Of a stretch of DNA of 64,000 nt, positions 5,923 to 28,165 are shown in pieces. A program made the translations under genes and the position numbers. A model generated the notes under the pieces. That model was given only the letters and a program-made list of their open reading frames with translations, was not told the DNA's origin and made no database searches. Positions within the stretch are counted from its first letter, which is position 1. The number at the start of each line of letters is the position of its first letter. The DNA lies in the NCBI GenBank assembly GCA_035084275.1, contig CM068759.1:10044001-10108000 (forward strand), given 5' to 3'. This stretch comes from Hydrolagus colliei (Eukaryota).

Positions 5923-6157
5923 ATAGACAGGACACGTTTTGACAAGGCTTTGCCACGGATCAGACCTCCCCCTTTCTGGTACTGAGATCGGACGAAGCGA
6001 ACAGCTTGTAAGGCGGGATTAGAGGGGGTGAGACAGAAGGGTGTCACGCAGAGTGATATGGCACAGGAAAGGACCACTTGGCCCACAAAGCACAAGCAAG
6101 AGGCAGGCAGAGAACAGGCAACGTTTTACATAATGAGGGCATGGGCTGGCACTTCAC

Positions 6158-6289
6158 CTTGGATCCGTTTTCCTTGGATTCGCTTTCCTTTTGCTCTGGG
6201 GTGGGCTCCGATTCTTTGTAAACCACGGCCTTGGTCACGAGCATGTCTGGGTGCTCCTGCTTCACTTCCTTGATCGCAAGAGCCAAAGC
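6158..6289 (-). CDS. EPB41L1: 4.1 CTD exon ([26 protein letters not shown]...NGSK)
   Basis: 132 nt; ctccag acceptor, gtgaag donor; [12 protein letters not shown] matches 4.1N. Confidence 0.95.
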
Positions 6290-7310
6290 CTGGAGTGGAC
6301 AATACATCCCCGGTCAGCCAGGAACCCCCCCCACGAGGTCAGGAATACACATTCCGTCAACTGTGCAACCCATCAGTTTGGTTAGTTGATCATTAAGGAA
6401 CTGGGGAGTAGATTAATGATTTATTTTTTTCCAATAAAAGGGATTCAACGGCCTGTGATTCAGAGTAAGACCCTCTGCCCCCGCCCCCCACCTCCCCCCC
6501 TTACACCCTCTGCCTCACCATCGGAGGTCGTGCTTTCAGTAAAGACCTGCATACAACCCAAGAGTTGTAAATAGCATTCCTTCCGTTTTGTCGTGCGGAA
6601 ATGCACACTCACTACACTCCGTGGTAAACACGGTGAAGCCCTTTTGAGACGTCCTCCTAATGCGAAAGGCGCTAAAATCAAGCATTGGCATTGCAATGAT
6701 TTAGGATGGCAAATGTTTTGCTGTTCGGTGCATAAGAGGTTGGTCAGACATGATTTAATGTTCAAATGTGTGTTCCTTTGAGCTGCAAAGTCAATTTTGT
6801 ATTGTTGGAATTCCATATAGCCTTTGTGTGAATTAAAACTATTGTACAAAAGCAATGCTGATTTATAGACAGTGGTACAGTAAATGCACTGTCTAAAGCT
6901 TTGAAGCTTCTGAGGAGTAAGCTATTCAGCCCCTCGATTCTGTTAGATCACGGCTGATCTGTACCTCAACTTCAACTTATATCATGTATTCAGTGTCTGA
7001 CGTTCTGGATATAAGTGTGTAGCAGGCGTTTCTAACTCCCTTTGTGTACCCTGCGTCTCGCACCCCCCTGCCCCCCATCTGTCTTTAAATCCTGCCAAAA
7101 ACCTAACCCTTCAACCGCGTCTCAGATCACGCTGCCCCTCCCGTGCTCGGCACCTGACCCTGTCTTGGGACGTCCTCCCGACGTGAAAGGCGCTATATAA
7201 ATGTAAATTGTTGTTGTTGTTGTCTTGGTGACGCGCTCCGGGCCCGTTAGCACTAAACGAACGCAACGAGATCCTGGAAGAGATTCACTCTGAGAAACCC
7301 GGCCCCTTAC

Positions 7311-7391
7311 CTGGTCCTGGTCAACGTCTGCGTCTCCTGTGATGATGATTCTTTTCTCAATTCTTGTTTCCGAGAAGCCCCCTTTCACTGA
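7311..7391 (-). CDS. EPB41L1: 4.1 CTD exon ([27 protein letters not shown])
   Basis: 81 nt; attcag acceptor, gtaagg donor; CTD signature. Confidence 0.97.
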
Positions 7392-8108
7392 CTGAATGCA
7401 CAACAAAGTCAGTTTGTTAATGGCTGTTTAAAGTGGACGGCAAATTAAATCTGAACGTATAGGTTATTCCAATCATTGAGCGCTTCTTGGTGCAATTCCA
7501 ATGTGACGTTTACTACAATCACCCAGCTTAACTGAACATAATTGCTACTTAAAGAGAGAAAGCTCAGTCTGATGGATCCATTGCAGAAACTGTGTAATTG
7601 TCCTAAAGTCTTTTTATCAGATGGAAGGATGATTATTACAATACAAAACTCGCATACATCTTATCTCCTAACTCAAAAAGCTGCTGCCCTACCATCCATT
7701 ACTCCCACTTACCAGACGGCTGCTCTGAATCGCAGTAATGTTTATTAGTTACAGCGAAGCGAGAATTCGTATGGCTGATCAACTGACAGCATAAAATATT
7801 AAATGATCAGAAAAGGTCGCTCCATGACCCCGTCTTCCCCATCCTCGCCCGACTCTATTGGCACCCCATCACCCAGAAGATCCAATTCAAGATCCTGGTC
7901 TTTACATTGAAAGCCCTCCATGGCCTGGCCCACACTAACTCTGCGACCTCCTAACCCCCTATCAACCTACTCAGCCTCCCCACTGCAGCAGGCTCTCCCC
8001 TGACCCACTCACCCATCTTGCCATCAGCCATCGATCCCGCTTTACCTGGCGCTCTCAACAATGAAGTGCATGCTCAACGCGATCTACGTTGTGGACGCAG
8101 GCTCTCAC

Positions 8109-8207
8109 CTTGGTGATGTGTGTGGTAGTTGATGTAGAGATGGTTTCCGAAGTGACAGACTGATTGTTAGTTATGGACGCAGGTCCACCTTTACTCTCGC
8201 CGTCAAC
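8109..8207 (-). CDS. EPB41L1: 4.1 CTD exon (VDGESKGG...TSETISTSTTTHITK)
   Basis: 99 nt; cccag acceptor, gtgaga donor; TTTHITK motif. Confidence 0.94.
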
Positions 8208-8699
8208 CTGGGATGCCAAAAAACACATTCACAACTTACAAGCGGGCTCGGGAGCGCAAGCCAACGTAGCTTTAACCTCGTGATTTTTTTAAAAAAAAAC
8301 ACCTTTGTAGCTAGCGTTCAGCAACTTACAGCTGAAGGTGAGGACGCAAATTCCGAGACAACGGTCTGAGAGCTCGAAACAACCTCGGCCGCTGAACTGA
8401 GAACGCTGTTGGCCTGCAGGAACAAACACAAACACAGTTTAAACTGGCCAATTTATATTAACAACATCTTGCACTTATCCAGGACCTTGTACATAGGAAA
8501 CCAACATAACCAACAACAACTTTGATTTACATAGAGGCGTCTCAGAGCGCTTCACAACAACTGATCCCAGGGGAGGGGCAGGGGGAGAAAGGTGACCGAA
8601 AGCGCGGACGGAAGAGAAAGTCTTTAGCAGAGACCTGCAACTAGGAAGTGAGGGGCGGGTGAGGCGAACAGAGTGAGGAAGGGAGTTCCAGAGCGCTTC

Positions 8700-8804
8700 A
8701 ATAAAAAACAGAAGTTGCTGGGAACACACACACAGTACGTCAAGCAGCATCTATGGAGAGAGGAAAACGAGGAAACGTTTCAGGTCGATGACGTTCGCCT
8801 GACT
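8700..8804 (-). mobile_element. Penelope-like element terminal remnant
   Basis: gcagcatctatggagag...aacgtttcaggtcgatgac resembles the shark PLE terminal repeat as recalled; a related fragment lies at 63930-64000. Confidence 0.55.
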
Positions 8805-9214
8805 GACACACAAGTGCGAGCTCGAGCAGGGATGGAAGTTTGGAGGGTGGATTGAGGGGACGGGAGGGGATTGGGGAGGTGACCAAAGGCGCAATCAAAG
8901 AGATTGTTTTTTTAAGGATTAAGGAATTGAAATTGGAGAGAGTGGGTGCAATCCCGGAGGAGATTTAAAGAGAGAGCACCAGAGAACAGGGCAAAGTGGC
9001 TGAATACTCACCTACTGATGGTCGAGGAGGATGGGGGGAGGAAAGGGTATAAAAACATAAGAAATGCTAGACGAAAAAAGACAAAGGTCCAAAGTTTGGC
9101 TTCCACCTTCCTGGTGGTTGCGTGCACATATGTCCCAAACTACCTATGTACTCTATATATATATATATATATATATATCCCATAATGTTATTTCCTAAAA
9201 GAAAAATAACAGCA

Positions 9215-9640
9215 ACAAAATAAATAAATAACATTTGTGTGGCACCTTTCACGTCGGGAGGACATCCCAAGGTGCTGGATAGTCAGGTTTCGGACCTCAG
9301 CTGGGGTCGGGATCGAGGAGGGTGTGACCAATGGCACAGTTGAAGGAGGGTCTTGAGGCGGGACTTGAAGGAGGCGAGGGAGGGGGTGAGGTCGAGGGAT
9401 TGTGGGAATGGAAATCCAAAGGTTGGGAGCAGAGTGGCTGCAGGGGCGGGTGGATCGGGGGGGCAAGGAAAGGCCGGAGCCCGCTGAGCGGAGGGAGCAG
9501 ACAGGTTGAGTTGGGAGTTTGTGGAGTAGTGAGGGGGGGGGGGGGCAAGGCCATGGAGGGCTTTGAAAGTGAGGAGAAGGAGCTTGAATTGAATCCTCTG
9601 TGTGATGGGAAGCCAGTGGAGATAGGCGAGTATTGTGGGG
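9215..9640 (-). mobile_element. LINE L2-clade 3' fragment
   Basis: ORF track LAYLHWLPITQRIQFKLLLLTFKALHGLAP, followed by the 3' tail. Confidence 0.85.
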
Positions 9641-10020
9641 TGGAATATAAGAACATAAATGCTAGAGGAAAAGGAAGGGAGGGAGTGGGGGACGGAAGTG
9701 GTGGGGGGCAATGTCTAGCAGTGGCAGGATGATCATTAACTCTAAACATAGTGCAAGTTGAAAATTAAGGGTTGTATTTTTCCAAATTCTGGATGCGACC
9801 AAAATGTTTCACAAATACAACTATAACAATAAAAAGTTACATTTGTATTGTTATATTTTAGCGCCTTTCACGTCGGGAATACTCAAACTTGAGGCAGAAT
9901 TCCGCCCTCACCCCCATACCAACCACTCTGCGAGTGTGAGTGTTTGTGTGTGAGTGTGAGCATGTGTGAGACTGTATGCGTGACGTTTTCTGAAAACAAG
10001 CAAAAAAAACACCCGAGCAC

Positions 10021-10140
10021 CTGTGTGGCCGTCACAGTGGTTTTGGTCTCTGATGCTAAAGACGTTTCTTCCTTTGGGGAAACTTCAGACTTCACAGACT
10101 GGACATCACTCGCGGGAATAGTTACCGGTTTCCTGGCAGG
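10021..10140 (-). CDS. EPB41L1: 4.1N exon, 120 nt (PARKPVTIPASDV...TVTATQ)
   Basis: ctcttgcag acceptor, CAG|gtgctc donor; positional homolog of human PVKTET...DNTQ. Confidence 0.8.
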
Positions 10141-11282
10141 CTGCAAGAGAAGGAGACACCAACCTTTCAAATTCATTCGTCCTTATACAAGGGGATCACT
10201 GGCCCCAAATTCCACCTAGCCTTAGAGCGTAAGATCATTTGGTCATACAACTGAAGGTTCCACAGAATTGACGAAAATTCCTGAATCCATTGATAAACCA
10301 ATCTGTGTGAAATACAGTCAATCTGCTTCATAGGACATTCTATGAAGCGCTTTGAGAGGCCTCAAGGGTGTGATAAGGCGCTATATTAAATGCACAAATT
10401 ATTATTATCATCGTCATTTATATTTCTGCAGCGCCTTTCGGGTCAGGGGCACGTCTCAAAGTGCTTCACCTGGGAAACTTAATTTGGAGCTTAATTTGTA
10501 AGAGCTTTTCAAGAGTTCCGGGCAGATCCGAATTTCAAGGCTCGGTGCAATTTGGGAGCTGTGATTAACATTCTGTTCACGGCAACATCCCGCAGTCAGA
10601 GAGAAAGCTTCATTTGGGGAATAAACAACACAGACATAAGATGTCAACAGGCGACAATCAACGTTCATGCAGACATTGTTTTTGGCAATGAATAATCCAG
10701 CAGTAATCTCTTAAGGGAGCTACATGCAATAATTAAAGTGACTTGTATTCTCAAACCTTCGGTTTATATAATATTCAGACCCAAAAAAATCACAGAAACC
10801 TTAGCATTATATGTTAATAGCATTTTAACAGTAAAATTATGTAAAATTCCTTATTGAAGTACTGCATGGAGCTCCTTTAACTGAAACATTCCCGGCTGAA
10901 AGCAAAATGCCTTCTTTAGCAAACCATTCGGTGGAGCGCGTGTGAGGAATGGATTAGTACTTGAGCAAACGCTCTTGAAACAAAAATACATTGACATTAA
11001 GAAGGTGCCTCATTAACTGGCACATAATGTAACACAGACAGACACTTTTTACACTCAATTAGAGGAAAGCAAGCATGCTCTTGAGAGGCAATTAATGAAG
11101 AACATCAAGTAATAATTGGCAGGAGGGCAGCTTGCCCTAATTCATGAATGTATTAGTCAACCTGATCTGCAGTCTGGTTTAGGGAATGGTGGGGATGCAG
11201 AGGTTATGGTTTTACACACAAAGGGAAAGTTGAAAACACAGGTGACATGGACAATCACTAGGTGGGAGGGGGGAGATTTTAC

Positions 11283-11717
11283 CTCAAAGTGAGGTTTTTC
11301 TTGAGACTCTTCAGATAAATGGTCAATGGTTTTAAGTTGGTTCTCCCTTTGTGTTTGAGGAGATTGGCTTTCAGGACTTGAGGAAGGCAGATAACTGTCA
11401 ATGGCTTCCACTGTGTCACTGCCTAGCCCCTCTTTATCATCCTCTCTAGTTTGGGTTGGTTTCTTCTTCTGCACCTTCTCCTCCTCCTCCAGGACTATCT
11501 TACTGTCTCCCGCTTTCCCCGGTACTTTGAGATCTTCCTCAGCTTCCTCATGGGCTGTGGAGGCTGCGGGGACGCCTGTATGTTTATGGTCTCCCTGTGC
11601 GTGCAGCTCCTTTGTCAGGGTCTCTGGAGCACGTTCCTTCGTCTGTTCCACCGTCTCTACCACGTCTTGTTTGGCTGAAATAGGTCTCTCCTCTAAGTCC
11701 TGCTTTGTTTCAGTGCT
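11283..11717 (-). CDS. EPB41L1: 4.1N U3 exon, 435 nt (STETKQDLEE...EKPHFE)
   Basis: ttgctcag acceptor, GAG|gtaaaa donor; ends PHFE, like human PQFE. Confidence 0.8.
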
Positions 11718-12550
11718 CTGAGCAAGAAAGAACTGCGAGTATTAAGGCAGAAGGAATGAAACGCATTAGGAGTGGAATGGGATTAAGATGGATGTGTGCG
11801 TGTGTGCAAGAGGGAGGGAGGGCAAAATAGTGGAATTGGGTGAAAGTAAGGATGAACGTTTTTCAGAATGATCAATGCTCATGGGTAGGATGAAGAAATG
11901 GAAGGAAAACTAAAATCTAAACAACTCTGACCATTGTGAAATAACCAACCTGGGGTTTTCTAGATTCTTCACTGCACTTTTTACGTGGAGATGTAGGCTC
12001 CTGCAAATGAACCAAAAGTACTTGTGATTAAGCGGTCGTGTCTTGCAATCAAACAAAGAACATCTGCTCCCCCGAACAAATGAAATGAACACAACAGGGA
12101 GTTTGATATAACAGCTTTCACACGGACTGAAAGGCATTTTCTATGAATAATACGAGTACTAGGGAACGGCGATGTATCGGTTTTTCGATTAAACCCGATA
12201 TGATTTTCAGATCGGTATGCCGATATGGTGATTCTAAAAAAAACGTTATATCGAGAGATTCGATTTTAAAAATATACATCGTTATATTTTTAATATCGCT
12301 CCTGGCAATATATCAATATTGTTGGTATTATCAGTGTTATGCGATCTTTTCCAGCTTACCTTGTCGCCGGCATTGCAATCTCCTAGACTTAGAGCATGGA
12401 ATGCGCGTACATTCGGTGCGCGCGCACAATTAACGGGCGCGCACATCCGATGCGCGCGCACACTTTACTGTGTATACTCGACGTGAGTCGTGGCGTCTTA
12501 ACAAAGTCGCATCGCTGAAAATTGTAGTTTGAAAATTTACCTTTCTCATC

Positions 12551-12985
12551 ATGGGGAAAAGAAGCCCCGTATGGGACTACTTTGAAAACAATGCAGTCAG
12601 TAATGGTGTGTATAGATGTACAGTTTGCAAGGTCTTGGTTAAGACATCTGATTCGAGCACGAGCAACCTGCGACAACACATTAAGCAGCACCAGCCCGCC
12701 CAGCACACTGCCCTCAGAGCGAAATTATTGTCGACAACAGCAGGAAGTCGAACCAGCGCTTCGGAGAAAGCGACAGGTAGTGGGGCCAGTGCAGCTCAAA
12801 CAATTCCTGCTTTATTTAAGAGGAGAACATTGTACCAGAGAGGGGACAAAAAGTGGCAAAGTATCACGAACGCTGTCACTTTTTGCATAGCAAAGGAGAG
12901 CTTGCCAATGGCGATTGTTGAGACGCTTGGGTTTAAGCAACTCCTAAACTAACTGGACCCCAGGTACAAACCACATAGCGAAGGA
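12551..12985 (+). pseudogene. Truncated hAT transposase, BED zinc finger and N-terminal domain
   Basis: SPVWDYF...CTVC...TSNLRQHIKQHQP BED motif; IAKESLPMAIVETLGFKQLLN*LDPRY has an in-frame stop; no catalytic domain seen. Confidence 0.88.
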
Positions 12986-13288
12986 CATTAATTCAGACTA
13001 CATAAAAATAAGTGGCATTTTGTGGCTGTAAGTGTTATTTTTGTGTGTGAGAGAGTTAGAAGCCAGATTATCACTGCTGTGTGTGTCTGACTAGACACAC
13101 ACATAGAAGCAGTGATAATCTGGCTTCTAACTCTAACAGTCAGACTGACTGTCTCTCTCTTTTCTATTGTAATAGATCTCATTTACACGTGGACATTACA
13201 TGCTAGTTTCAAGCAAGAAATGGAGGAGAATAAATCTCTAGATTTTGTTTTTGGTGTGTGTGTGTTCTATTTTGTGTTTAGAGATGGA

Positions 13289-13860
13289 GTGAGAGAAGGA
13301 GAGGGGGAAAGTTGGGAGAGAAGGAGAGAGGAAGAGAGGAGAGGGAGGGAGAGAATGAGAGGGGGAAAGGAGGGAGAGAAGGAGCGAGGGAGGGAGGGAG
13401 AGAAGGAGAGGGGGAAAGTTGGGAGAGAAGGAGAGAGGAAGAGAGGAGAGAGGAAGAGAGGAGAGGGAGGGAGGGAGAGAAGGAGAGGGGGAAAGGAGGG
13501 AGAGAAGGAGCGAGGGGAAAGGAGGGAGAGAAGGAGAGAGGGGAGGGAGGGAGAGGGGGAAAGTTGGGAGAGAAGGAGAGAGGAAGAGAGGAGAGGGAGG
13601 GAGAGAAGGAGAGGGGGAAAGGAGGGAGAGAAGGAGCGAGGGGANNNNNNNNNNNNNNNNNNNNNNNNNNNNNNNNNNNNNNNNNNNNNNNNNNNNNNNN
13701 NNNNNNNNNNNNNNNNNNNNNNNNNNNNNNNNNNNNNNNNNNNNNNNNNNNNNNNNNNNNNNNNNNNNNNNNNNNNNNNNNNNNNNNNNNNNNNNNNNNN
13801 NNNNNNNNNNNNNNNNNNNNNNNAGAAGGAGAGAGGAGAGGAGGGAGAGGAGAGGGGGAG
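13289..13860 (+). repeat. Polypurine composite minisatellite spanning an assembly gap (N 13645-13823)
   Basis: Repeated gagaaggagagggggaaag and ggagggagagaaggag units. Confidence 0.9.
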
Positions 13861-14589
13861 GTAGGGAGCAAACAACATCGTATAATTCAACAGACCTTGA
13901 CACCAACATTTCAAACTTTCTGGACCTAGAGCACGCATTTCGAAATGTGCGTGCACCGCGACTGCGCGCACATCGTCAGTGCACGCGCACTTCGAATGCA
14001 CGCGCATGCGCAGTATAAAAACTCGATAGATCGGTTTAAGCAGGTATGAGCAACCCGATATATCCATATCCGGAAAAATCCCATATCGCCGTTCCCTAAC
14101 GAGTACTAATAAAATAATATAGTTGCGTTTGATGTTAACGCCTTCACATCAGAAGGATGCCTCAAAGCAACCATAGGAATTTACTGTAAAGTGTAAAGAT
14201 ATTGTATAGTTTTCATATTTAGACGAAAGCAGGGATTCAACAGATGTTCTTTCTAGCCCCCAAGCCTTGGCTCTGGTCAAACTGCGCCTGGTACGTTCGA
14301 GAATGAGGTAACCAGGATTCAACCCTCCAGGGAGAGAGTGCGCCCACAATCTATCTCTGGGGTTTCCATGTGAAGGTGGGGATGCATGCAAACCTTTGGG
14401 GTTTGGATACTCCTAAGCACGGTGATGGATTTCCACATATGTCAGACACCAGGTGGGTGACCAAAACAACAACAACAACAACAACAACAAAACGATTTCT
14501 AGTGCAAAAGGATAAAATATCAGTGCTATGGAATGTTATGCGGATTGTGGTTCAATTCAGAGATGAAAAGTTTATCAAGACTTAAACAC

Positions 14590-14724
14590 CTGTGTGGCAT
14601 TGACTGAAGCAGAAGCAGCATCTAATCTGTCTTTCATTGGCGATTTCCTCGGAGATTTTGAAGTCTCCTGCGGGGGCTTCACCTCCCCGTCTTCCAAGGC
14701 ACAATCGTGGGCGGCAGCTTTAGT
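14590..14724 (-). CDS. EPB41L1: Candidate 135-nt exon (TKAAAHDCALEDGEVKPP...NATQ)
   Basis: Branch point gactaat, pyrimidine tract, ttag acceptor; CAG|gtgttt donor; open phase 0. Confidence 0.65.
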
Positions 14725-15424
14725 CTAAGTAGAAAAGGGCATTAGTCAGACGCTGAAATGAAGGGAGGCAGAACGCATGGCTTTAAAATGGAATAGCAAC
14801 AAACATTCTGGCAGCGAGCTTCACAGCAAACGGTGGAAAGTCAGCCATTAGTAATTGTGTCAGCCATTAGTAATCTTGTTGACAGGCATGATTACGCTGA
14901 AAGGAAGGAGAACAGTGAAAGAGAAGGTGGGGGAAGAGAGGGGAAAAGAGAAAAAATAAGCCGTAGAAAGCAAAGGAAATGGGGTAGGGGCCCGGGGGTG
15001 GGGGTATAGAAGCCAAAGACTTTCACTTTTCTGAGCACCAAAATGCAACTTTCTAGCAATGCAGGAAAAGCGTAGACACTCCCAGAGGTTCGTGGAGACA
15101 CTTTCAACAGCTGCCTGGTCAGTCTGTTCCCATTGCTGCCAAAGCTACATTTGGCTCGATCGGTTTCCGTTTTGCAGTCGTAAACAAACTCCAAAAAGGT
15201 CCAAACAAAACACGCAAAAGGAATGCAAATCAACGGCGAGGATCAAACAAACCCTCTGCGTTTTAGCGAATGCACACGGAGTAACAAAAACACAAAGTAG
15301 CAACTTGGAAACAAACTTTGCTTTCAAGCTGTTGGAAAGCTTGGAGGATGATGTAAAGACAAAATACAACTCGGACAAAACATGCTGCGACAACAACGTG
15401 TTGTTTCCTTGCAGGAAGAGTTAC

Positions 15425-17953
15425 CACTGCTTCGGTCAACTCCACTTCGCAGCCCGAGTCTGGCGATCCCACCTCGGTGAAGTGTGTGGAGACCTCGGTG
15501 GCTTTGAATGGCTTTTTGGGGAACGTGTTCTCGCCCAGTTTCAACTCAAAGTAGGATATCTTATCCTTGAGCGTGGCTGAACCCATGTCGTAGGCCCCTG
15601 CGTCCAACTGCCTCTCTTTACGCTTGGTCGAGGAGAGAGATCCGCCTGACTCGTCCCCCGGGCTCAGAGACTCCGTGCTGGGCCTGACTCCGGATGCCTC
15701 CTTCTTAGGTTTCAGGGCCTCCGGTTTCGAGGGTCTCTCGGGTGACCCTTTCTTCATGCCTAGCCACTCAAGTTCCGAGGGTCTAACTGGCTTAGCTCCT
15801 TCGTCGCCAGCCGCGCATGGTTTTGACCGCGGCGGTGATGCCACTTCGGCTGCCAGTGGCAACTCGGACCCATCGGGCCCTGATTTAAGGGCTGAACCTT
15901 GTTGCTCGAAGCTCTCCAGCACAGGTTGGGATCCGGGTTCACTTTTGCCCTGCGCAGGGAACAACCGATCTCGGGGTTTCTCGGGAGATTGTTTCTCGGA
16001 AACAAGGACATCGCCTTCAGGTAAGTCCTGAGATTTTGCCGAGGCTGAAGTAGACTGCGAGTCTTGACAAGGCAATGGTTTAGATTCGTCTGCACCGCGC
16101 TCTCTCTCAGTCTCCCGGATCATCGATTCAACCCAGCCGTTGTCATCATCGCCGTGGGAAACCCCTCCGCACTTCTTGCGGTCCTCTGGTGAAGGGGCTC
16201 TGGACTTACCTCTGTCCTGTCCTGAAGGTGGCGACTTGAATTCCTTTCTGCCCTGGTCTGGTGAGCACGGCTTTGGCTCTTTGGCCAGGGTAGGTGACTT
16301 TGCTACTTTGTCCTGCTCTGGGAAACGCAGCTTAACCTCTTTTCCAACATCCACCAGGAAGCACGGCTCTGACTCTCTCACGAGGGAGAAGGGTTGCAGC
16401 TCTTTCCCTTCACCCCCTACGGAGCAAGGGCGTTGCTTTTTCCCATCCCCTCCTATGTAGAAAAGCTGCAGGTCTTTCTCATCACCACCTAAGGAGTAAG
16501 GGCGCTGCTTTTTTCCCTCCCTTCCCGGAGAGCAAAACCATTGGTCTTTTTCATCGCTTCCTGAGGTTACCAGCGGTGTTTGCTTTTCCCGATCTTGGCC
16601 ATCAAGAAAGCATTCAGCGATGTAGGCTTCAATATCATCGAACCGAGAAATTCCTTTATCCTCATCTCTTTCACCGACGCTTTGCGGCTCATCCATAGCC
16701 ACTGGCGAATCGAGTTTGGATTCGACCTTTCCTTCGTCTTCTGAGATGGGTGTGGAGTCCTTGTGCCTCGCTGGTTTAGCTCCTTCCCCACGTTCTTCCC
16801 CTGGGCAAGTTGGTTCAGGTTCCCTCTCAGCATCCGACTCGGAATCAACCTCAGAAATCACAACCTGAATTGGAGTAAACTTTTGGTGTCTCTTTGGGGA
16901 ATCCGTCTCCATTTCTTCATGCTTCCCTTGGTCATTCATTGAGGAATCGATCTTGCTTTCTGGGTATCTCTCTTGATCATCCGCTGAGGATCTCATCTTG
17001 GTTTTCACATGTTTCTCTGGTTCATCCATCGGGGAATGTGTCTCGATTTCTTCGTGCTTCTCTCGGTCATCCATTGAGGAACTTGTGTCGGTTCCTGTCT
17101 GTTTCCCTGGATCATCCATTGGTGAATCTGTCTTTACGTCTTGCTTACCTAAACGAGAGTCTGTCGTCTCCTTCTGATCAGCCATTGGAGAAATGGGTTC
17201 AAATTCTTGGCCATCAACCTTTCTGAAACCTTGGCTGGAATCTCTTTGATCATCCTCTTGGAAAACTACGCTGGACTTAGTTTCATCCTCCACCGGGGAA
17301 GTAAATTGAGGTTCCTCCATTACGCTGTCTGGCAAGAGTTTGGTTAATGCAAATCCTGGCTTGAAAGAGCCTGACTCTGAATCGTTTTGAGGTTCAGCTA
17401 AGGCTTCTTTACTGTCTTTTGTCGAAACCTGTACAAATGAAGATAAAATGGTAATGGACTCGTGAACAGTTCGCTTATTTGTCGAGCTCAACGACTCTCG
17501 ATCGAAACGATCAGCGGGTGCTATGTTCTCAGGGTCAGTGGGTGCTATGTCCTCGGGGTCAGTGGGCTCCTCTGGGCTCAGAGTTATTGCTCGTTCCTTG
17601 GCCGTTGCCACCACCACCGTCCGATGTTCACTCTTGACCGGAAGAGTTGCCGTGCCGTCTGCCATGTCCTCTGAGCCAACAGTTTCAGAAGCTTCTTCTT
17701 GTTCGACTGCTGTTTGAACCCCAAAGGCATCCTCGGTTGCTGAAGGTGTCTCTCCGAGCGACTCGTCCCTTGGAATCCATCCTTCGGTGAATTCCAACCC
17801 GGTGGAAGAATACTCTAATGGCGGAATCTGGTTGTCGTCATCTTCCGGAGTTCTGTCTTCCAGGGATTCTCTTCTGCCACTTTTCATTTGATCTACAACT
17901 AGTTCTTCTAGCCTAGAAGCTTGACTTTCTATTATAACCCATTCCTCAGAGCC
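15425..17953 (-). CDS. EPB41L1: Giant acidic low-complexity exon, ~843 aa (GSEEWVIIE...ELTEAV)
   Basis: 874-aa ORF in the track extends in frame to a tgtag acceptor (AG at 17954-17955); donor GTG|gtaact at 15425, alternative GAG|gtggga at 15473; phase 0/0. Confidence 0.8.
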
Positions 17954-18471
17954 CTACATTTCAAATATAGAAACTTGTCAACGTTACAGTATTGTAAGAG
18001 CAGGCACACAGCATGCAGTTCCCTCACATATTTTGCTCTCTTTTTTAAGGGCAACCAAGAGGCAAAACACGTGGATAAAATGTGCATCCGAGACTGTATT
18101 GAAATTAGCTTACTGAACTGCAGCATGCACAGCGATTGCTAGTTATAGTAAGTACACTGCGTTAAACGCTATCGATAATCGCTCGATCAAACCTTTAGTT
18201 TAATATGCCAACTTATGATTGAAGCTCTAGCCTTATGTGTTCTGCGATTTCTCTTTGTAAGTTGTTAAATATTATTTAACCCCCCCCCCTCCCACCCTCC
18301 AAAACAAAATCAACACCCGAGTTAAAAAGAAAAGGATCGTTTGCTATCAATTATTGTTCCGCAACTCTTGCATGAAACCACTCTTAACGTCATCCAATAG
18401 TTTTATTTTATTCTAATTTAGACCGAATTACAGGGCTAACAAGCGTGTAAACTGAAGAAATAAAGGTCAAC

Positions 18472-18579
18472 CTCAGGGGAAGAAGCAAGGCTTTCCTGTG
18501 CAGCATCTTCCACAGATAAGGCAATAGCGCACACATGAGAAGCCGGCTCTTCTCTCATCTCCTCTTCAGCGCCCGCAGG
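18472..18579 (-). CDS. EPB41L1: Candidate 108-nt cassette exon (PAGAEEEMREEPASHV...SSPE)
   Basis: Good acceptor gctaattaacctttctaacag; open phase-0 frame; weak donor GAG|gttgac. Confidence 0.5.
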
Positions 18580-21500
18580 CTGTTAGAAAGGTTAATTAGC
18601 TGACATACCAGAACGCATCACACAATAAACAAACAATAGAAGTGTTAGCTTCCTCCTTGTGGTTTCCATTATTATTCCCCCACCCCACCCAGAGGATTCT
18701 TTGTCGGTTTAGAAAATCCAAAGCTGAAATACATGCTCGCGTGTTGCTACACACACCACCATAATCACTTAAGAACGCACCGACCTCTTTATTGATCCTG
18801 GCTGTTTACACAATGCCAAATACTTTATACTCCAGAGTTTGGGAAACTCAGTCCTTTTGTCTATAGCTGGAGCGTGTTGCTTTTGTATTTTATTCAGCCT
18901 GCGGGCAATGATCTAAATTTGTACCATGTCTGCATTAGCCACGGGCTGTGGAAGTACGTGGTGAGAGGAACAATGTGCAGCAGCAAAAAATGGATTGGTA
19001 GTGTAAAGTCAGTGCAAATGGGTGAGAGTAGGTTTAAACTGATCTCTGTCGCTGGCCTCAAGTCGGAAATAATCCTGTTCCAACTAAAGAAGGCTGGCTG
19101 CAACTGCTAGGCCAAGATCTCTCTACATATGTTTGCATATGTCTACGTTTCATTACCATATTCCAAGGGCAGGCACACAGCAGCCTCCATGCAGTTAGCT
19201 CACTATGTTCCACTCTTTACATGGACGTGTAATTGCTACAGTGAATATATGTTAAAAGCAACCAGGAAAGAAACGTGTGGATAAAATGTGCGTCTGAGGT
19301 TGTGCTGAAATACAATAATGCCCAAACAAAATAGCGATAATCAAGATCTCTTTAAAAGGAACTTTTTTTTTTTAAGTCTACTTTAGTCCATCTCCGCTTC
19401 CTACTTTACACATGCAATACTGTACTGCATAACAGAATGACAGATTAAAGTGTTGCATCAGTGTGTTGCATTAAACTTACCCAAAGAGTAGGGTGACCGA
19501 TCCGAGCTGGACTAGCAGCCGGAATCTTGTGTTTTCAATGGCAAGCAAATTATTTTGTTTCTTTATAAAAATGCTGGTTAAACTCCAGCATTACCTGGAG
19601 TTACCTCCAGCGCACACTTTGGATCTCACCAATTTGTGCTCAGTACTCAATAAGTGGAATTATGTAAGGGGGAGAGAGAATGCGCATAGCATTCCAGACA
19701 CAGGAATGTCCATGTGCAGGTAGCAGACTGGAACTCTCAGTCTAGTTTGGATACTCTGAAGCATTGGTGATGAATTTCCCATGTCAAGTCACTCAGCTGA
19801 CTAAAAGTAAACGCAGCGCTTCATTTACCAATCGAATATGCTTTCGCCGCCTGCAAGGGAGGCTATTTTCAGTCTTGGAACTCGATTTTATCAAAATGGG
19901 TGAAGGGGGGCTGAGCGGATTCACTGGGACTCAAACCCACAACCTCCATGTCCTAAATCCAACGCACAAACAATTGAGCTACTCCAATTGGAAGAAAGGG
20001 AGCTTTTGGAACAAACACACTGACACAAATTTTGTGTTTCTTTCCCTCACTTGTTATGTTATAGTCAATAATATTGCTGATTTGTTTGTTTTACTAGTAC
20101 TGTACTATAATAATATATATATACACATATGTATTACACATACATACACGCACACAGAGTACACATTCATTCAGCAGGTTGTGTTTTATGCAAAATACCC
20201 TGAAGAAGACATAGGAAGATTACAGGATACAATAAATATGCTAAGAATGCAATCAAATCTAGGCAACCCCACCCCATGCTCGAAACCAAGGGGGTGAAAA
20301 CTGCAAAGTGTAATTGTGATATCATCTAACACCAACTGCGAAAATATAATTGACCGGGCTGGTCAATGACTGGACACTGTAGAGACCACAGGTGTGATAC
20401 AGGTGATATAGGTGTTATCGCCCTCCCACTCTTTCCTCCATCCCCAACTTTGTCACAATGGTTAGACGCAGAGCTGCCTTGTGGTTTGCAGCATCAGAAT
20501 GCCAGGTAGTTGGGATACCATGTTATTAACACAACAACAAAATAAAAACAAACGGAGCAAAGTCAAGTAATCCCTGAATCGGCAGTCCAATGGTACAATC
20601 CGTGTCCGAAATGCACAGCTCAGCTTCAAAACGCACGGCCCGACCACTCTGTGTCAGGGAACTGGGGGTGTCACACACGCCAACCTGCCAATGTGTCCCT
20701 GTTGCCAACGGCTGCAATTTCCAGCGATGTGGTAATTGACATTGGCATAAATTAACACAACACAAAACATGCACACGAAGACTAGGGGCATGATCTACCC
20801 GCTGGCGGGGAGTTAATATTCTAATTCCCACGGTTTTATCAGGCCCGAATGTGATTAGGAGAACAAAAGCAATCTATCGGTTTATTCGACCGTGCCTTCA
20901 GCCGCCTTCCTACATCGCTGCCCTGCCCCCCTCCCCCCACCACCACGCTCGAGTCCTGACCCCCGACTGTTCAGCGTGTTGAAACATCCGCCCGACGTGA
21001 AAGGCGCTCTACATATGTAATTTTGTGGTTGTTGTTGGTTTCAGCAACTGAAACCAACAATTTTGGTGGTTGAGATGAAGAGGAAAGGAAGGCACATTAT
21101 ACAGAACATCGCGCAGGGGTGTGAGAAGGTGGAATTATCAGGTGTACTTAGTGATATGTTCTGGCTGATTTCCACCATCATGTTGTCTGATCTCCCCACG
21201 TCAAGTGGAGTAGAGTAATGAATGACGCACTGCAGTGTGCAACTTGGAAGCATTATACTGCACTAAAAGCTACAATGAGCTTGGATTAACAGCAGGTGGC
21301 ATCAGGGCATTCAAACCCTCCATTTGGACATCCTGGGCTGCAGTTAGTCACTGCTGAAGCAGTCTGGCCTGGCATTAAAATGACACTCACAGAAAAAAAT
21401 AACCTGCAAATGGTATTACTGTCACGCAAGGGACAGACAGAAAGTGCTGTATTCACTGCGGGCATATGAGATTTGAGAGCTTTAACACAATGCGTACGGT

Positions 21501-21644
21501 CCACTGTTCTTTACCGAGAAGAGCAGAACGCCACAAATGGCTGAGCGAGTCATGAGCAAGGTTTTTGACGCACACAGTGCCGCACAAGCGTACCCGGAGG
21601 TACTTTGGCAATTACTCATAGGAATGGGCCTGCTGAATGACCAG

Positions 21645-21908
21645 ATTGTAATTGTGGGTGAAACACAGCAGCCAATTTGCATGCGCACAGCAGTGTTCCA
21701 CTGACCAGATTTGTTTTTGTAAGGACTGGCACCCCTGAAAAGTATTATACCAAACAACGAACAACCGGGTTCCTAATTACTGCTCGGCCAACAGAGGTGT
21801 GTGTGTGGAGAATGAATATTTGCTTAAAGTTTCTACACCACCCGGGAATCGAACCCAGGTACTCTCTCTCGCGAGGCAAGCGTGCAAACCACTGCACTGA
21901 GGAAGCAG
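21645..21908 (-). mobile_element. Divergent SINE subfamily (tRNA head, ggaacccggttgtt segment, Deu domain)
   Basis: Head GCTTCCTCAGTGCAGTGG...GGTTCGATTCCC; a related copy lies at about 41434-41790. Confidence 0.65.
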
Positions 21909-22183
21909 CGGCGAAATCTCAAACGTACTTTTGACTGTGTGCACAAAAATCACGCGTCCAAAACACATGGCACTTTTGCTCACGATGCACAGAATCAGCA
22001 GAGGGGACATTCCAGTTGTGAACCCGACACCGACTTGACAACCCCCGGTTAGATCAACGCTAAAACTAGAAATATAACCAGCACCAACAAACTGACAATC
22101 AAACGGATCACCATGAACGATGCCCAGGATGCCAGCCCAACTGTGCCTGCAACTTCTAAGATGCGTTCGTGAACAAAACTCAC

Positions 22184-22375
22184 CTCTTTGGCCTTCTCGT
22201 TCTCTGCCTGATCTTTGGGTTTGGTTTTCGCAGTGGATGAAGTGGGAGAGGTGGTGAGCTTCTTGTCCCTGTCGCCGTGGCCTAACTTAATACTCGTGGA
22301 TTCTTGCAAAGTCCGTTTAAGTTCGTTTATATTGGCCTGGTGCTTCATCAGTACGTCCTCGGGTTTATCCAGGAA
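22184..22375 (-). CDS. EPB41L1: 4.1N SAB-like exon ([23 protein letters not shown]...KAKE)
   Basis: 192 nt; aag acceptor, gtgagt donor; KHQAxINELKR motif. Confidence 0.93.
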
Positions 22376-23507
22376 CTTTGGCAAAATTGAAAGAGAAATA
22401 TATCCGTGAAAAATTATGTCGGAAGCGACAATGCACAAGCACAACATACATCCCCTAATCTATTTAGCAGTGCAATAATATTAATGATAAACCTCGTATT
22501 TGATATTGAACCTTTCACGGCAGGAGGAGGTCTCAAAACGCTTCGCAGGATGTGCTGTAACGTGTAAGGCGCTCTATAAATGTAAATTGTTGTTGTTGTT
22601 GTTGTGACTGTATATTTTGCAGACAAACGCAACCGAATTGGGCACAGCAATGCGCCACAAACAGCCGTGAAGTGAATGAGCTATTTTATCTGAGGGAATA
22701 TTAGCCATGGGGTCGTTAACATCAACCTGGACAGGCCTCCGTTTGTTCACATCTCATCCGAAGGAAGGCACCTCCGACCGACTGCTCCCCCAAACCCAAC
22801 ACCTTGTGGGATTGTCAGACGAAACAATAGGGGTTCCAAGTTCTGACATCGGGTTTGAACCCACAACTTTACCATTCAGAGGCGAGAGTGAGCCAGGATT
22901 CGAGAGGCTGTTCAAACATGGTTATATCTTTATATTTCAGAAAACAAGAAAACAAGGCAGAAAACAAAACTGAGATGCAGCAACTTCGAGTGCTGTGAAA
23001 CCACCCCACATTTGCAATGTGAGGGAATCGTGTGTGTGTGTGTGTGTATGTGTGAAAAATCTTCATTACTATTCAAATGATTCAATATTAAACATTTATC
23101 AATAACAAGGTATTCAGTGGTGGAATAACATGAAGCAGAATATTATCACCCACTCTCCTGCACCCAACAAAAAGAATCCCAATCTTCGAATAACATTGTT
23201 TCTTGCAGAACGCTAATATTTCATTTTGAATTACAATTTAACATAAGAAGTGAGCAGTAGGAACCCTAAATTGCGCCAGAGATTTCAATCTGTTATTGGA
23301 TTAGTGGAGGATATGAGTTGGAATCTCTCAGAATGGACCTATTTCTGTTCAGTGACCTGTGCTCATCTACACTTTGAATCAGACCTACCATTGCCTTGCC
23401 TATCTTACAGCTGAAATAATACTTTTAAAGACAGATATGATTATAAAGTCACAGAATTACAATCAACATGAAGAAAAACAGCTCGCGCCGGCCGGTCTGT
23501 ACACTAC

Positions 23508-23543
23508 CTCAAGCCTAACTTTCGGTTCATCTTCATTTTCCAT
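23508..23543 (-). CDS. EPB41L1: Candidate 36-nt mini-exon (MENEDEPKVRLE)
   Basis: tgtcag acceptor, GAG|gtagtg donor, phase 0/0; same length and position as the recalled human segment PEQETTPRHKQE. Confidence 0.7.
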
Positions 23544-25170
23544 CTGACAGCAGAATTTTAAGAAAAGTGGAAGTCAATTAAATCCAAGACAGTAATAGTC
23601 ACAGTTTATCGACGCTTGTGCGAAAGCAATGAAACAAGCACGACAGAACTGAAGTGTGAAGTGTTCGGAAGAAATCAAATTCTACAGCGATGAATTAATG
23701 GAGACACAGTCGAGCTTCCATCCTGGCGCTGGATATGGCGCTGGCAATTTGCAATTAATGAGAATGATTGCAAAGCAGTGTGTGCAATTTGTCTGTGGGG
23801 TTAATGCTTTCGGCTTGGAATGCATTACGACTGACTTTCACAGAAGCTCAATGCTTTCAACTTAATTCAGAGAACGAGTGAGTCCTTTTCCGAGCAATAG
23901 GATCTTCCTTTAGTCTTTGTTCTCCTGTTTTTTCATGCAGCGCCTTCCTTTAGTAAACGAGAAAGGCCCTGCCCATCTGTAAACCTGCACAGAGTCACGA
24001 GTATTAATGCCGAGCTAGGTTTCAGCTGACGTTTGAAGGGATTGATCTGCCAGCAGATGTTGTCCTACCTCTGTAGGTGCTCTACACTCATCAACTCGTT
24101 TTCCAAGAAATACTGAGTTGTACGGTAATGATATTTATAATCCCTGCACTTGATATAGCGCTTTTCACATCTTTATCGACGTCTCAAAGCACTTCACAGA
24201 ATATAATGTAAAGTGAATTGACTGTATATTTGTGGGTGAAACGTGGCAGCCAATTGCGCACAACAGTGTCCCACAAACAGTTGTGGATGGAAAATGACAA
24301 TTTTTATTATTGTAGGGGTTTTTTTGGGACGGATTATAATTTCAACAACAACTTGCATTTTTCTGACAGCCTTTTATGCAGAGCAGGGTCCTGGAGCGCT
24401 TGGCAATGACGGAGTCTGATCTCGAGCTAGGGATTGTGGTGGGGGGGTGTGGAGAGGAGAGGTGACTGCAGACACAAATCAGGAAGGAAGGTCTTTTGGT
24501 GGGAATTGAACCATGGGTGAGATGGGGCAAGGAGGAGGGATTGAGGGAGAGAGTTCCAGAGTTTGGGGGCGTATCGTGGCTGAAGGCACAGCCATCAATG
24601 GAGGAGCAGAGTGGACCAGGGACAAAACAGGAGGCTGGAGCCAGGTGTCGGAGAGGGAGAGGGGGAGGGGAGGGGAGGTCAGCAAATTGTATATAGGTAG
24701 CAGTGGATTTGAAAAATTTGGGGGAAGAAGGAGAGGTTGAAGCGGACACAATCTCTTGACCTGTCTGTACAAAGTGCTACCTACCTATGCACCAAGGGGT
24801 CCATTTAATTATACCAACAGCATCGAGACCTTGAATAGGTCCAGTGGAATGTCACTGTGATGAATGCCCTCGGGAGCGGCAGAAAAGATTGTTACATCGG
24901 AGTGTTTTCAGCGCTTTGGGACGTCCTCCCGACGTGAAAGATGCTCTATAAATGTATTGTTGTTGTTCACTATATCAGGGTTTGGTCAAAGAGGTGAAAA
25001 AATCGCTTCTTGCCATTAAAACCAGGGGTTTATTATAAGCGGGGGTCCATATAGTGAGGTTCGACTGCAATTTTGATGGACAATGCAAAGAAGCAGAGAA
25101 AAAATAAGATCTACAGAGATAGAGGCATTCTCGGACTAACACCAGTCATCATTCCGCTTTACATAATATA

Positions 25171-25488
25171 ATAATACTGATAATCCTTACATTTGATATA
25201 TCGCTCTTCACATCTTATCAATGTCTCAAAGCGCTTCACAGAATATACTGTAAAGTGAATTGACTGTATATTTATGGCACAACGCAGCAGCCAATTGCGC
25301 ACAGCAGTGTCCCACACACAGTCGTGGATTGAAATGACCAATTTTTTTTTATCATTCCATTTTTTGGGGGGAGGGATTATTATTAGGCGTGTGGAGTAAG
25401 GAACTTGCCCGAGGTTTCACCCCGACCTGCCTGGATTCAAACACAGGTCTCACGCTTGTAAGGCGAGTGCTCTAACCACTGAGCTACA
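25171..25488 (-). mobile_element. Same SINE family, near full length
   Basis: Reverse complement of the 5590-5922 consensus. Confidence 0.88.
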
Positions 25489-25529
25489 TATAATCACATC
25501 AAGACGTACAAAACTGCAGCCTGCTGTAC

Positions 25530-25714
25530 CTTCAGCTCCTTAATTTTGGTCGGGGTGGTTACTTCATCTCCTCTGTCCGACTTCTGGGAGGATTTCTTAC
25601 TGTCGGACTGCGGTGTGACGGGGGTGTCTGTCCGGGACGCCTCGCTGGTATCTTTCTCCGAATCCTTCAGCAGAGCGTCGTGGTTCTCACCGACCGAAGC
25701 TGGACGGAAAAACT
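25530..25714 (-). CDS. EPB41L1: 4.1N U2 exon (EFFRPASVGENHDA...TPTKIKELK)
   Basis: 185 nt; ttgcag acceptor, gtacag donor; ends match human RPASVSENHDA and TPTKIKELK. Confidence 0.93.
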
Positions 25715-27492
25715 CTGCAAGTCACAATATCCGACATAAAATGTGTCTGCTGTGTGCCCCCAGCAGTAACTTACACCGAGCAACGGGAAGAGGATGTCAA
25801 TCAGACAAGTGACAAGCATGGACCCAAGCTGGGAGTCAGGGTCAGGAAGGGTGGAGGGCAGGTGGGGCGATGGTGGGAGGGCGGCCGAAGGCACGGTCGA
25901 AGAGGAAGGTCTTTAGACGGGGCTTGAAGGAGGCAAGAGAGGGAGTGAGGCATAGAATAGAATACATGCATAGAATATAAACTATTTCACAATTTAGACT
26001 TGTATGATTTATGCCAATCACAGTTATGCGAGTTTTCCTGAAGTACTTTGAAGACACTGGGAGCCACTTGTTCTGAGCCTGTAAGGCTTCTCTGTGTTCA
26101 CCTTTAAGACTGAGCTGACCTATGGAAATTTCTTTAGCTGAAGACTGGTATGCTGATAGAATGGGGTGAAGTGGGTGGGGCAGTTAGGGGCGTGAAGCAG
26201 ACACAATAGACGAGGCAATCGAGTGGCAGAGGCGGGATGCGTTTGACGGTGAAGATGAGGATCGTAAAAATGGATTGAAAACCTTCCAATCAACCCTAGG
26301 CCCCTTCATTGAATCCTTTCCAATATTTCAAAGCCGTTTCAAAGGCAGAATGACCAAAGCCACGAGCAACAACTGAGCTATAGCCTCTTTCAAAATGCCC
26401 TTCGTTAACCTTGTGAACATCAGTGCATTGCAAAGTCTCCAAGTGCAACAACAACCTTCTCACTGTTATTGCCTTTAAAGAAACCTCTATGAAGCCAGGA
26501 CATATCCAAGTTGAATACCATTGTCGTGAGTTATGTATTAAGAATACATCTGTTACATAAGTTCCTGGCAGTACTGCTATGGATTAATGGGAACGTGGTA
26601 ACATTAGTCCTTTCAGATGTTAAAAGTGTACGTTTCCAGCAGGGAGCAATAAAGCCTCCAGTGTTCATAATCCAACGGGATTTACATACAAACCCTCTTG
26701 TTTCTACAAACACTCTCTCGCATATTTCTAATGTAACCCAGCGCAATAAAATAAGCAGCTGATCTACACAATGAATAATGTACTCCAACACTTCAGGCAA
26801 AACATTCATCTTCCCCACATCCTCTTCCCCCACCCACCACTTCTGCTCCTTTTGCTAACAAACTTTTACGTGAATTTCATTCACCGCGTTCACGGGAAGG
26901 GCACAATGTGTAGCATCGTAACTCTGGATACTTCGCTGTGACAATGGCACTTTAAACATCTGATAGAAGTTAAAAAGGGATGTTAAAGCACTTTCTAAAC
27001 CATGAGCGAAATACATTAAGGATTCGCCCGTGGCTCTGCACATTCTGAGCTGTTCATGCTACAGTTCGGAACGAATCCTCTTGACTTGTGGTGGTTTAGG
27101 GTCCAAAATAATCAGACTCTAGAGTTGTTATAGTGGGCCCAATTATAAACATTCCCCTCGAGCGGCAAGCTCGGAATTTGTTGACTTTGTTAATGGCGGA
27201 TGATTGCAAAGTCGCATATTGCTGCACCGACCTTCTCACTGTAATTGTCAGACCTTCTGATTTCGACTGATTCCACTCCGACAGTTGGACTTGGATTGCA
27301 AAGGATACAAGATGCATTTAAGAGGAAGCAAGAAACACACACGAGGGATACGGGAATAGGAGGGTACGGGAGGGAGTAGGGACTGGGTGCAGACACATGT
27401 GGAATGCAAACACAAGAACAGGCAATTTGGGCCTAAACACCCTGCTTCAGTGCTGTAAATTCTAGGCAAATTTGATACAATCAAAACCATAC

Positions 27493-27668
27493 CTCCATCG
27501 AGACTCCGTGACATTGTGTATCGTTTGCTTGAGGATCGTTCAAAATAGGGTGCTGGGCGATCAATTAATGCGCTGGCTTGTCTGGTTTGAGCCTGTGTAC
27601 GACCACTATAGCGAAACTTGGAGCCCATGACGAGGAATCCCTTTGGCGGGGGCTCGGGGGACACCAGT
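27493..27668 (-). CDS. EPB41L1: 4.1N FERM-adjacent exon ([27 protein letters not shown]...SRSLDG)
   Basis: 176 nt; tttcag acceptor, gtatgg donor; [15 protein letters not shown] matches 4.1N. Confidence 0.97.
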
Positions 27669-27927
27669 CTGAAAGGAGAGGAACAGTTTGTACAGAAAAC
27701 TGCCTGCCAGGGAACAAGGATGAAAGTACAGGAAACTCTGGCTCAAATTGTCATAACCACCTTAAGTCATCACGTTATCCCAACTGCATTTATTTATGCA
27801 TTTACACGTCTGACTAACCCGACAATGAGCTGTCACTGAACCCTTTTCCCTGGGAGTGGCTTGAGGATTTTACTTAACTTGTGCAACCAAACACAACAGG
27901 TGTTGGGCAGGGCTCCAGGTGAGGCTA

Positions 27928-28165
27928 AAAGCGCTTCACAGAATATACTGTAAAGTGAATTTGCTGTTCATTTGTGGGTGAAACCCGGCAGCCAATTGCA
28001 CATAGTGGTGTCCCACAAACAGTCGTGGATTGAAATGACCAAATTATTTTCTTTTCAAGGGATTATTATCAGGCTTGTGGAGCAAGGAAACTTACCCAAG
28101 GTTTCGTCCCGCCTGGAATCGAACCCAGGTCTCATCCTACCTGGAATCGAACCCAGGTATCTTGC
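27928..28165 (-). mobile_element. Same SINE family, truncated, abutting an exon donor
   Basis: Deu domain plus duplicated B-box cctggaatcgaacccagg. Confidence 0.8.

What the first reader, a model, noticed from the sequence alone, without database searches (positions are those of the whole stretch)
17888..17953. Ankyrin-B-like LIR motif at the very start of the giant exon
Seen: the exon opens GSEEWVIIESQASRLEELV; this lies upstream of the ORF-track start and is easy to miss. Established: LIR motifs are acidic residues followed by [WFY]xx[LIV], and giant ankyrin-B/G exons carry high-affinity GABARAP/LC3 LIRs (AnkB EEEWVIVSDEEIEEA, from memory). Inference: splicing may switch on ATG8-family binding in 4.1N, a known AMPA and IP3 receptor adaptor, linking it to receptor trafficking or autophagy. 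I know of no description of this.
Basis: partly seen in the sequence, partly recalled or inferred. Interest (0 to 1): 0.72.

Follow-up and report, generated by a model that had tools for sequence, protein, structure and literature searches.

The report
Conserved LIR-like motif in giant 4.1N
A large optional exon of the nerve-cell scaffold gene 4.1N opens with a short tryptophan motif kept from chimaeras and sharks to reptiles and mammals, which likely lets the long isoform bind ATG8/GABARAP trafficking proteins, though binding is untested.

Summary
The window is EPB41L1 (4.1N) of a holocephalan. A 2,529-nt alternative exon (17953-15425) opens with GSEEWVIIES straight after a phase-0 acceptor, and annotated isoforms of relatives splice into that same glycine from two different upstream exons. 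The core W-V-[FIL]-[IV]-[ED] is present in 12 of 12 long isoforms found without using the motif, and in 38 of 38 aligned exons from cartilaginous fishes, squamates, turtles and mammals, while the exon averages 19% identity. It is the only one of nine LIR-like cores in the exon that is conserved. A GABARAPL2 complex prediction gave weak support (0.47, best control 0.01). 'Ankyrin-B-like' holds only for the core: the acidic +7 residue of the ankyrin C-helix is absent (0 of 120) and position -1 is non-acidic in amniotes (His in 107 of 110), so nanomolar binding is unlikely. Two further conserved islands lie at the exon's 3' end: an F-actin-motif-like KIxxFE and SPDSGCE. Verdict: a real conserved short motif, probably an ordinary-affinity LIR (about 0.55), not found in print by my searches, and cheap to test.

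The parts
17900..17953 (-). Conserved island 1, exon residues 1-18: GSE-x-W-V-[FIL]-[IV]-[ED]-[RKS]-x4-[LP]-E-[ED]-L; candidate LIR with downstream acidic/hydrophobic patch
17930..17941 (-). LIR-like core WVII (W0 V1 I2 I3)
   Evidence: position; 38 of 38 aligned exons keep aromatic/aliphatic pair
15425..17953 (-). Giant alternative exon of EPB41L1, 2,529 nt, 843 aa, phase 0/0, acidic/Ser/Pro-rich, no Pfam family
   Evidence: skipped in P0003/P0004 and included in P0005/P0304 of C. milii
17954..17981 (-). Acceptor TAG (17956-17954) and branch-point-like TTGAC (17981-17977)
   Evidence: read; AG list
18472..18579 (-). Small alternative exon (36 aa, ends SLASSPE); when included it places serines and a Glu upstream of the motif
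   Evidence: junction counts
22184..22375 (-). SAB-domain exon, the other donor seen spliced to the giant exon in relatives
15545..15571 (-). Conserved island 2, LKDKISYFE; amniotes V[AS]x[KR]IxxFE; resembles the short F-actin motif VxxLxxxFE
   Evidence: 119 of 120; motif definition in bioRxiv 10.1101/2025.04.16.649135
15446..15466 (-). Conserved island 3, SPDSGCE; resembles a DSG phosphodegron (label recalled, not from a call)
   Evidence: SPDSG in 109 of 120
14590..14724 (-). Next exon downstream (TKAAAHDC...), phase 0 acceptor
6155..53617 (-). EPB41L1 coding span (FERM, FA, SAB, U3, CTD)
   Evidence: tblastn of C. milii isoforms on the window; Pfam on P0304

Best explanation
The first 18 residues of the giant alternative exon of 4.1N are a short motif conserved from cartilaginous fishes to mammals, and it likely works as an ordinary-affinity LIR that would let only the long isoform dock on ATG8-family proteins. 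Shown: exon boundaries, optional inclusion in annotated isoforms, invariance of W0/V1 and the restricted choices at +2, +3 and +4. Inferred: W0 and I/V3 fill the two pockets of the ATG8 docking site; E-2, S-3 (perhaps phosphorylated) and E+4 add charge; the E[ED]L patch at +11 to +13 may add a second contact out of the ankyrin register. Inferred consequence: including the exon would tie FERM/CTD-bound membrane proteins (GluA1/4, IP3R1, KCC2) to GABARAP/LC3-positive membranes, or mark the long isoform itself for turnover.
For: 12 of 12 proteins over 1300 aa found with the SAB exon alone (10 species; chimaera, sharks, sawfish, skink, deer mouse) carry S[ED]xWVx[IV][ED], 0 of 52 shorter ones do. 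In 38 aligned exons mean clade-averaged identity is 0.19, but residues 1-10 score 0.71 and 14-23 score 0.54. WVII is kept in 38 of 38; the other eight LIR-like cores in 1-9 of 38. Among 66 distinct motif windows +1 is always V, +2 is F/I/L, +3 I/V, +4 E/D; these fall inside the published LIR preferences (V/I at +1 for GABARAP; I, L, V or F at +2 for LC3: PMC7615515 section 12; acidic +4 helps LC3B: PMC6499816 passages). EEWVI matches the AnkB LIR start. ESMFold2 with medaka GABARAPL2 and C. milii residues 104-138: 0.47, best of 3 controls 0.01, 'weak support'; runs share at least 56% of contacts, partner pLDDT at least 46; the mark was reached by 51 of 78 solved and 2 of 108 mismatched pairs, but at 0.60 or under by only 5 of the 78 and by all 4 mismatches that passed.
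Against: Position -1 is acidic in none of 110 amniote sequences (His 107, Arg 2, Asn 1), though acidic -1/-2 are described as important for GABARAP binding. +7 is acidic in 0 of 120. +5 is usually Arg. The complex pass is weak, peptides are outside its calibration, and LIR-ATG8 complexes including AnkB-GABARAP are solved, so it may reflect memory; only GABARAPL2 was tried and no contacts were returned. Hydrophobic-only substitutions fit any beta-strand-adding motif. The 120 sequences were selected by the motif and cannot show loss. No teleost, amphibian or bird sequence was among those listed (120 of 367 hits shown).
Confidence: 0.55

Rival explanations
1. The motif is a functional short linear motif for a partner other than ATG8 (a beta-strand addition to an unknown domain, the FIP200 Claw, or 4.1N's own FERM domain), and its LIR look is incidental.
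For: The conserved unit is longer than a LIR core and has features a LIR does not need: G-4, His-1 in amniotes, Arg+5, [LP]E[ED]L at +10 to +13. FIR consensus overlaps LIR.
Against: FIR needs an acidic or phosphorylated -1, absent in amniotes. No PDB chain matched the motif. No candidate partner was identified. Weak positive with GABARAPL2.
Confidence: 0.3
2. It is an ankyrin-B/G-type super-strong LIR (core plus C-helix, nanomolar).
For: EEWVI identical to AnkB; E[ED]L conserved in 118 of 120; single-sequence AF2 makes residues 3-25 helical (low value).
Against: The defining acidic +7 (or +6) with hydrophobic +8/+11 (PMC8727931) is missing: +7 acidic in 0 of 120, +11 is Glu; mammals have Pro at +10.
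Confidence: 0.07
3. The conservation reflects splicing signals at the ends of a very large exon, not protein function.
For: The two best-conserved windows are at the exon's two ends; the acceptor is weak.
Against: Changes are conservative in amino-acid terms (I/F/L, I/V, E/D), +6 to +9 vary freely while +11 to +13 are held, and Trp is invariant. Synonymous sites could not be compared, as only proteins of relatives were in hand.
Confidence: 0.08

Closest known systems
Ankyrin-B (440 kDa) and ankyrin-G (270/480 kDa) giant-exon LIRs
   Same: Membrane-skeleton adaptor; vertebrate giant alternative exon; W-V-I-[IV] core with EE upstream in the chimaera (AnkB sequence: PMC9100651; AnkG W1989 in giant exon: bioRxiv 10.1101/307512 passages).
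   Different: No acidic +7/C-helix register; His at -1 in amniotes; sits at residue 5 of the exon; no sequence homology detected outside the core (own-genome search found only itself), so convergent if real; binding untested.
GIM-type LIRs without C-helix (ULK1, PCM1, ATG13)
   Same: W/F-V/I core, non-acidic +7, C-terminal flank may contribute (PMC6499816 passages).
   Different: +3 is mostly Ile, not the Val of the GIM consensus; +2 is hydrophobic, which permits LC3 binding, so GABARAP selectivity is not predicted.
EPB41L1 / protein 4.1N long predicted isoforms
   Same: The exon is already in RefSeq/UniProt models of many vertebrates; a faint ~165 kDa band is suggested as a larger splice form in mouse brain (PMC7550591). 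A long rat 'brain 4.1' cDNA is recalled, not seen in a call.
   Different: No function, motif or ATG8 link for this exon turned up in my searches.
[quoted passage not shown]
   Same: Island 2 keeps P1 (V/L/I), P8 F and P9 E.
   Different: P4 is K/R rather than L; EPB41 not found in the preprint's main text; untested.

Membership tests
Canonical LIR/AIM | [WFY]-x-x-[LIV] core | tested here: met
   WV[FIL][IV] in 120 of 120 listed long isoforms and 12 of 12 unbiased ones
Canonical LIR/AIM | Acidic or phosphorylatable residues at -1 to -3 | tested here: inconclusive
   S-3 and E/D-2 invariant; -1 acidic in 10 of 10 cartilaginous-fish and 0 of 110 amniote sequences
Canonical LIR/AIM | Located in an accessible, disordered region | tested here: inconclusive
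   No Pfam domain, E/S/D/P/K-rich composition, 19% identity; no disorder predictor run
Canonical LIR/AIM | Conserved in orthologues | tested here: met
   teleosts, amphibians, birds not seen
Canonical LIR/AIM | Docks in the ATG8 LIR docking site (prediction) | tested here: inconclusive
   Weak support 0.47 vs 0.01, no contacts given
Canonical LIR/AIM | Measured W-dependent binding to ATG8 proteins | not testable with these tools
   needs ITC/BLI/pull-down
GABARAP-interacting motif (GIM) | [WF]-[VI]-x-V | tested here: inconclusive
   W-V met; +3 is I in 61 and V in 5 of 66 distinct windows
Ankyrin-type LIR + C-helix | Glu/Asp at +7 with hydrophobic +8 or +11 | tested here: not met
   +7 acidic in 0 of 120; +11 is E; definition from PMC8727931
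FIP200-interacting region (FIR) | Acidic or phosphorylated residue at -1 | tested here: not met
   met only in cartilaginous fishes; His/Arg/Asn in amniotes
SFM F-actin motif (island 2) | V(P1) and F(P8) required; L(P4), E(P9) typical | tested here: inconclusive
   P1 V/L/I, P8-9 FE in 119 of 120; P4 K/R; binding untested
EPB41L1 (4.1N) | FERM-FA-SAB-CTD architecture and best hits to band 4.1-like protein 1 | tested here: met

The most novel reading that the evidence does not exclude
The 4.1N giant exon is a gnathostome-old three-motif cassette, a long disordered spacer with an ATG8-binding LIR at one end and an F-actin motif plus a phosphodegron at the other, so that one splicing choice turns 4.1N into a tether between ATG8-coated membranes, actin and its receptor cargo; this would be a second, convergent case of the giant-ankyrin design in the spectrin membrane skeleton.
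Probability: 0.2. Interest if true: 0.75.

Novelty: new member of a known kind. Interest (0 to 1): 0.5.

Why it matters
4.1N is a much-studied adaptor for AMPA, kainate and IP3 receptors and KCC2 (review PMC8473747, passages), but work uses the short isoforms; in the passages I read that review names only 135 and 100 kDa forms and no ATG8 link. A motif held for the whole span from chimaeras to primates in an exon that otherwise drifts freely marks a function of the long isoform that seems unstudied. If it is a LIR, splicing would control a direct link between this receptor scaffold and GABARAP/LC3, as for giant ankyrin-G. One peptide experiment decides it.

Tried and rejected
RNA evidence: no RNA holder listed; the one run laid gave only repeat-type contigs and nothing on splicing. 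HMMER over 50%-identity representatives with the whole exon: 4 hits, 2 identified as cartilaginous fish and 2 unnamed but shark/ray-like, so no route to bony fishes. PDB sequence search with the motif: 0 hits. ESM Atlas: leads under 0.9 only. Paralogues: no giant coding exon or GSE-x-W motif seen on the + strand downstream of the SAB exon of the three other 4.1 genes of this genome, so a family-wide motif was rejected for this genome. Own-genome ATG8 search found four loci (GABARAPL2-, two LC3A/B- and LC3C-like) but no GABARAP/GABARAPL1 (only best candidates are scored, so not proof of absence); GABARAP itself therefore was not modelled. Single-sequence AF2 of the first 50 residues: helix 3-25, pLDDT 66, pTM 0.30, not discriminating. 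A short 'LIR-only' exon form suggested by ~950-aa C. milii RefSeq models was rejected: the four checked run 348 aa into the exon and then stop out of frame, likely an assembly indel. An alternative N-terminus MLTLLAPI..Q in a horse model and a squamate contig ends in Q at the acceptor position and is probably intron read-through; not resolved. Earlier scan findings: none. The original 4.1N paper was not held.

Full report
Gene and exon. The window holds EPB41L1 (protein 4.1N) on the minus strand. The SAB exon's best hits are Callorhinchus milii band 4.1-like protein 1 at 97%, and C. milii isoforms map exon by exon from 53617 to 6155, so the organism is a holocephalan. The finding's peptide is not on the + strand but opens the 896-codon minus-strand frame at 17953. 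The coding exon runs 17953-15425 (843 aa), between atgtag|GGC and GCAGTG|gtaact. It is optional: P0003 and P0004 skip it, P0005 and P0304 include it.

Acceptor. The stop before the frame is the acceptor TAG, so no upstream in-frame extension is possible. The next in-frame AG (17944) would keep EWVII, and the one after is at 17827. Among 120 long isoforms, 111 join a small upstream exon (..SPE) to the Gly, 8 join the SAB exon (..KANE/KASE) to the same Gly, and 1 reads through the intron. In C. milii, 8 of 8 further cluster members carry the motif, 7 after SSPE and 1 after KAKE. These are database gene models, not reads seen by me; no RNA run was available.

Chance and conservation. A LIR core alone means little: 9 in this exon against 4.8 in shuffles. 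Conservation is the evidence. Without using the motif, the SAB-exon search gave 64 proteins; all 12 over 1300 aa (10 species) carry it and none of the 52 shorter ones do. A profile search gave 367 hits, of which 120 were listed; all 120 carry [GD]S[ED]xWV[FIL][IV][ED], though this set is selected by the motif. For the alignment I chose 40 exons and dropped 2 lacking the end anchor; in the 38 left (9 cartilaginous fish, 13 squamate, 3 turtle, 13 mammal) mean clade-averaged identity to the window's exon is 0.19, and the top 10-residue windows are 830-839 (0.84), 1-10 (0.71), 14-23 (0.54) and 789-798 (0.49), all other listed windows 0.36 or less. WVII is kept as aromatic/aliphatic in 38 of 38, the other eight cores in 1-9 of 38. 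Teleosts, amphibians and birds were not among the listed hits; this is a gap, not a loss. The three paralogous 4.1 genes of this genome show no such exon.

Fit to LIR rules. For: W0, invariant V+1, F/I/L at +2, I/V at +3, E/D at +4, S-3 and E/D-2, all within published preferences (PMC7615515 section 12 read whole; PMC6499816 passages). EEWVI equals the start of the AnkB LIR (PMC9100651 passages). Against: -1 is acidic only in cartilaginous fishes (10 of 10; amniotes His 107, Arg 2, Asn 1); +5 is mostly Arg; +7 is acidic in 0 of 120 and the conserved E[ED]L lies at +11 to +13, after a Pro in mammals. The ankyrin 'core + C-helix' mode depends on an acidic +7 (PMC8727931 passages), so membership of that subtype fails while 'works like a LIR' stays open.

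Complex prediction. Medaka GABARAPL2 (P0205; 98% identical to this genome's GABARAPL2 exon over 57 aa) with C. milii residues 104-138 scored 0.47, best of three controls 0.01: weak support. Runs share at least 56% of contacts; partner pLDDT at least 46. The mark was reached by 51 of 78 solved and 2 of 108 mismatched pairs, but at 0.60 or under by only 5 of the 78 and by all 4 mismatches that passed; peptides are untested in that calibration, alignments were not used, no contacts were given, and solved LIR-ATG8 complexes make recall likely. It moves the odds slightly.

Other islands. LKDKISYFE (15571-15545) corresponds to V[AS]x[KR]IxxFE in amniotes (119 of 120) and resembles the F-actin motif VxxLxxxFE, in which P1 and P8 are required (bioRxiv 10.1101/2025.04.16.649135, passages and section 7); P4 differs, and its table of candidates and supplements were not seen. 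SPDSGCE (15466-15446; SPDSG in 109 of 120) is the best-conserved stretch and recalls a DSG phosphodegron (recalled label, untested). The exon thus looks like a variable-length spacer (616-1005 aa) with motifs at both ends.

Mechanism. Shown: optional exon, motif position, conservation. Inferred: W and I/V occupy the two ATG8 pockets with ordinary affinity, perhaps tuned by phosphorylation of the serines supplied by the exon start and the small upstream exon; the long isoform would couple 4.1N cargo (GluA1/4, IP3R1, KCC2; PMC8473747 passages) to GABARAP/LC3 membranes or be turned over by them. AnkG's giant-exon LIR is the precedent (bioRxiv 10.1101/307512 passages). Odds: LIR 0.55, other partner 0.30, splicing constraint 0.08, ankyrin-type super-binder 0.07.

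Literature. No paper held EPB41L1 + 'giant exon', 4.1N + LIR + GABARAP or Epb41l1 + 'large exon' + 'alternative splicing'. EPB41L1 + GABARAP gave 13 papers (listing seen; passages of 2 read, both incidental); 'protein 4.1N' + autophagy + LC3 gave 4 (listing only); the 12 listed of 1,443 for EPB41L1/LIR motif/ATG8 lacked EPB41L1. A faint ~165 kDa mouse brain band is suggested as a larger splice form (PMC7550591 passages). Subscription papers, LIR databases and proteomic supplements were not searched and could list this site. The exon itself is already in database models, so the novelty is the motif and its reading.

Verdict. Observation confirmed; interpretation partly supported; a candidate new member of a known motif class. 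Interest 0.5.

Noticed in passing
window 15545-15571 (-): Conserved LKDKISYFE / V[AS]x[KR]IxxFE near the exon's 3' end, like the Lifeact/ITPKA F-actin motif but with K/R at P4 (119 of 120 long isoforms).
   Followed up: partly
window 15446-15466 (-): SPDSGCE is the most conserved stretch of the giant exon; resembles a DSG phosphodegron (recalled).
   Followed up: partly
window 18472-18579 (-): Small alternative exon ending SLASSPE, conserved to mammals (SLAASPE), can be included with or without the giant exon; weak donor gag|gttgac.
   Followed up: partly
P0061, P0066, P0171 and other amniote proteins: A second LIR-like core EVDFT[VMI][IM]G lies in a downstream amniote exon (106 of 120); no match to its keys was found in the window.
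   Followed up: no
window 16385-16555, 16894-17121, 17511-17566: Degenerate 24-, 36/72- and 45-nt tandem repeats inside the giant exon; sharks and rays have other, independently expanded repeats there.
   Followed up: no
P0297-P0302 (C. milii RefSeq X1-X8): These models enter the giant exon correctly but end out of frame after 348 aa, probably from an assembly indel in the repeats.
   Followed up: partly
P0314, P0150, P0175, P0176: FERM-less models starting just before or inside the giant exon (P0176 starts after the motif); an internal promoter is possible but unverified.
   Followed up: no
G000 C23, C26, C3 (L001-L008): ATG8 family search found GABARAPL2-, LC3A/B- and LC3C-like loci but no GABARAP or GABARAPL1; one LC3 gene lies about 1.6 Mb from this window on the same contig.
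   Followed up: no
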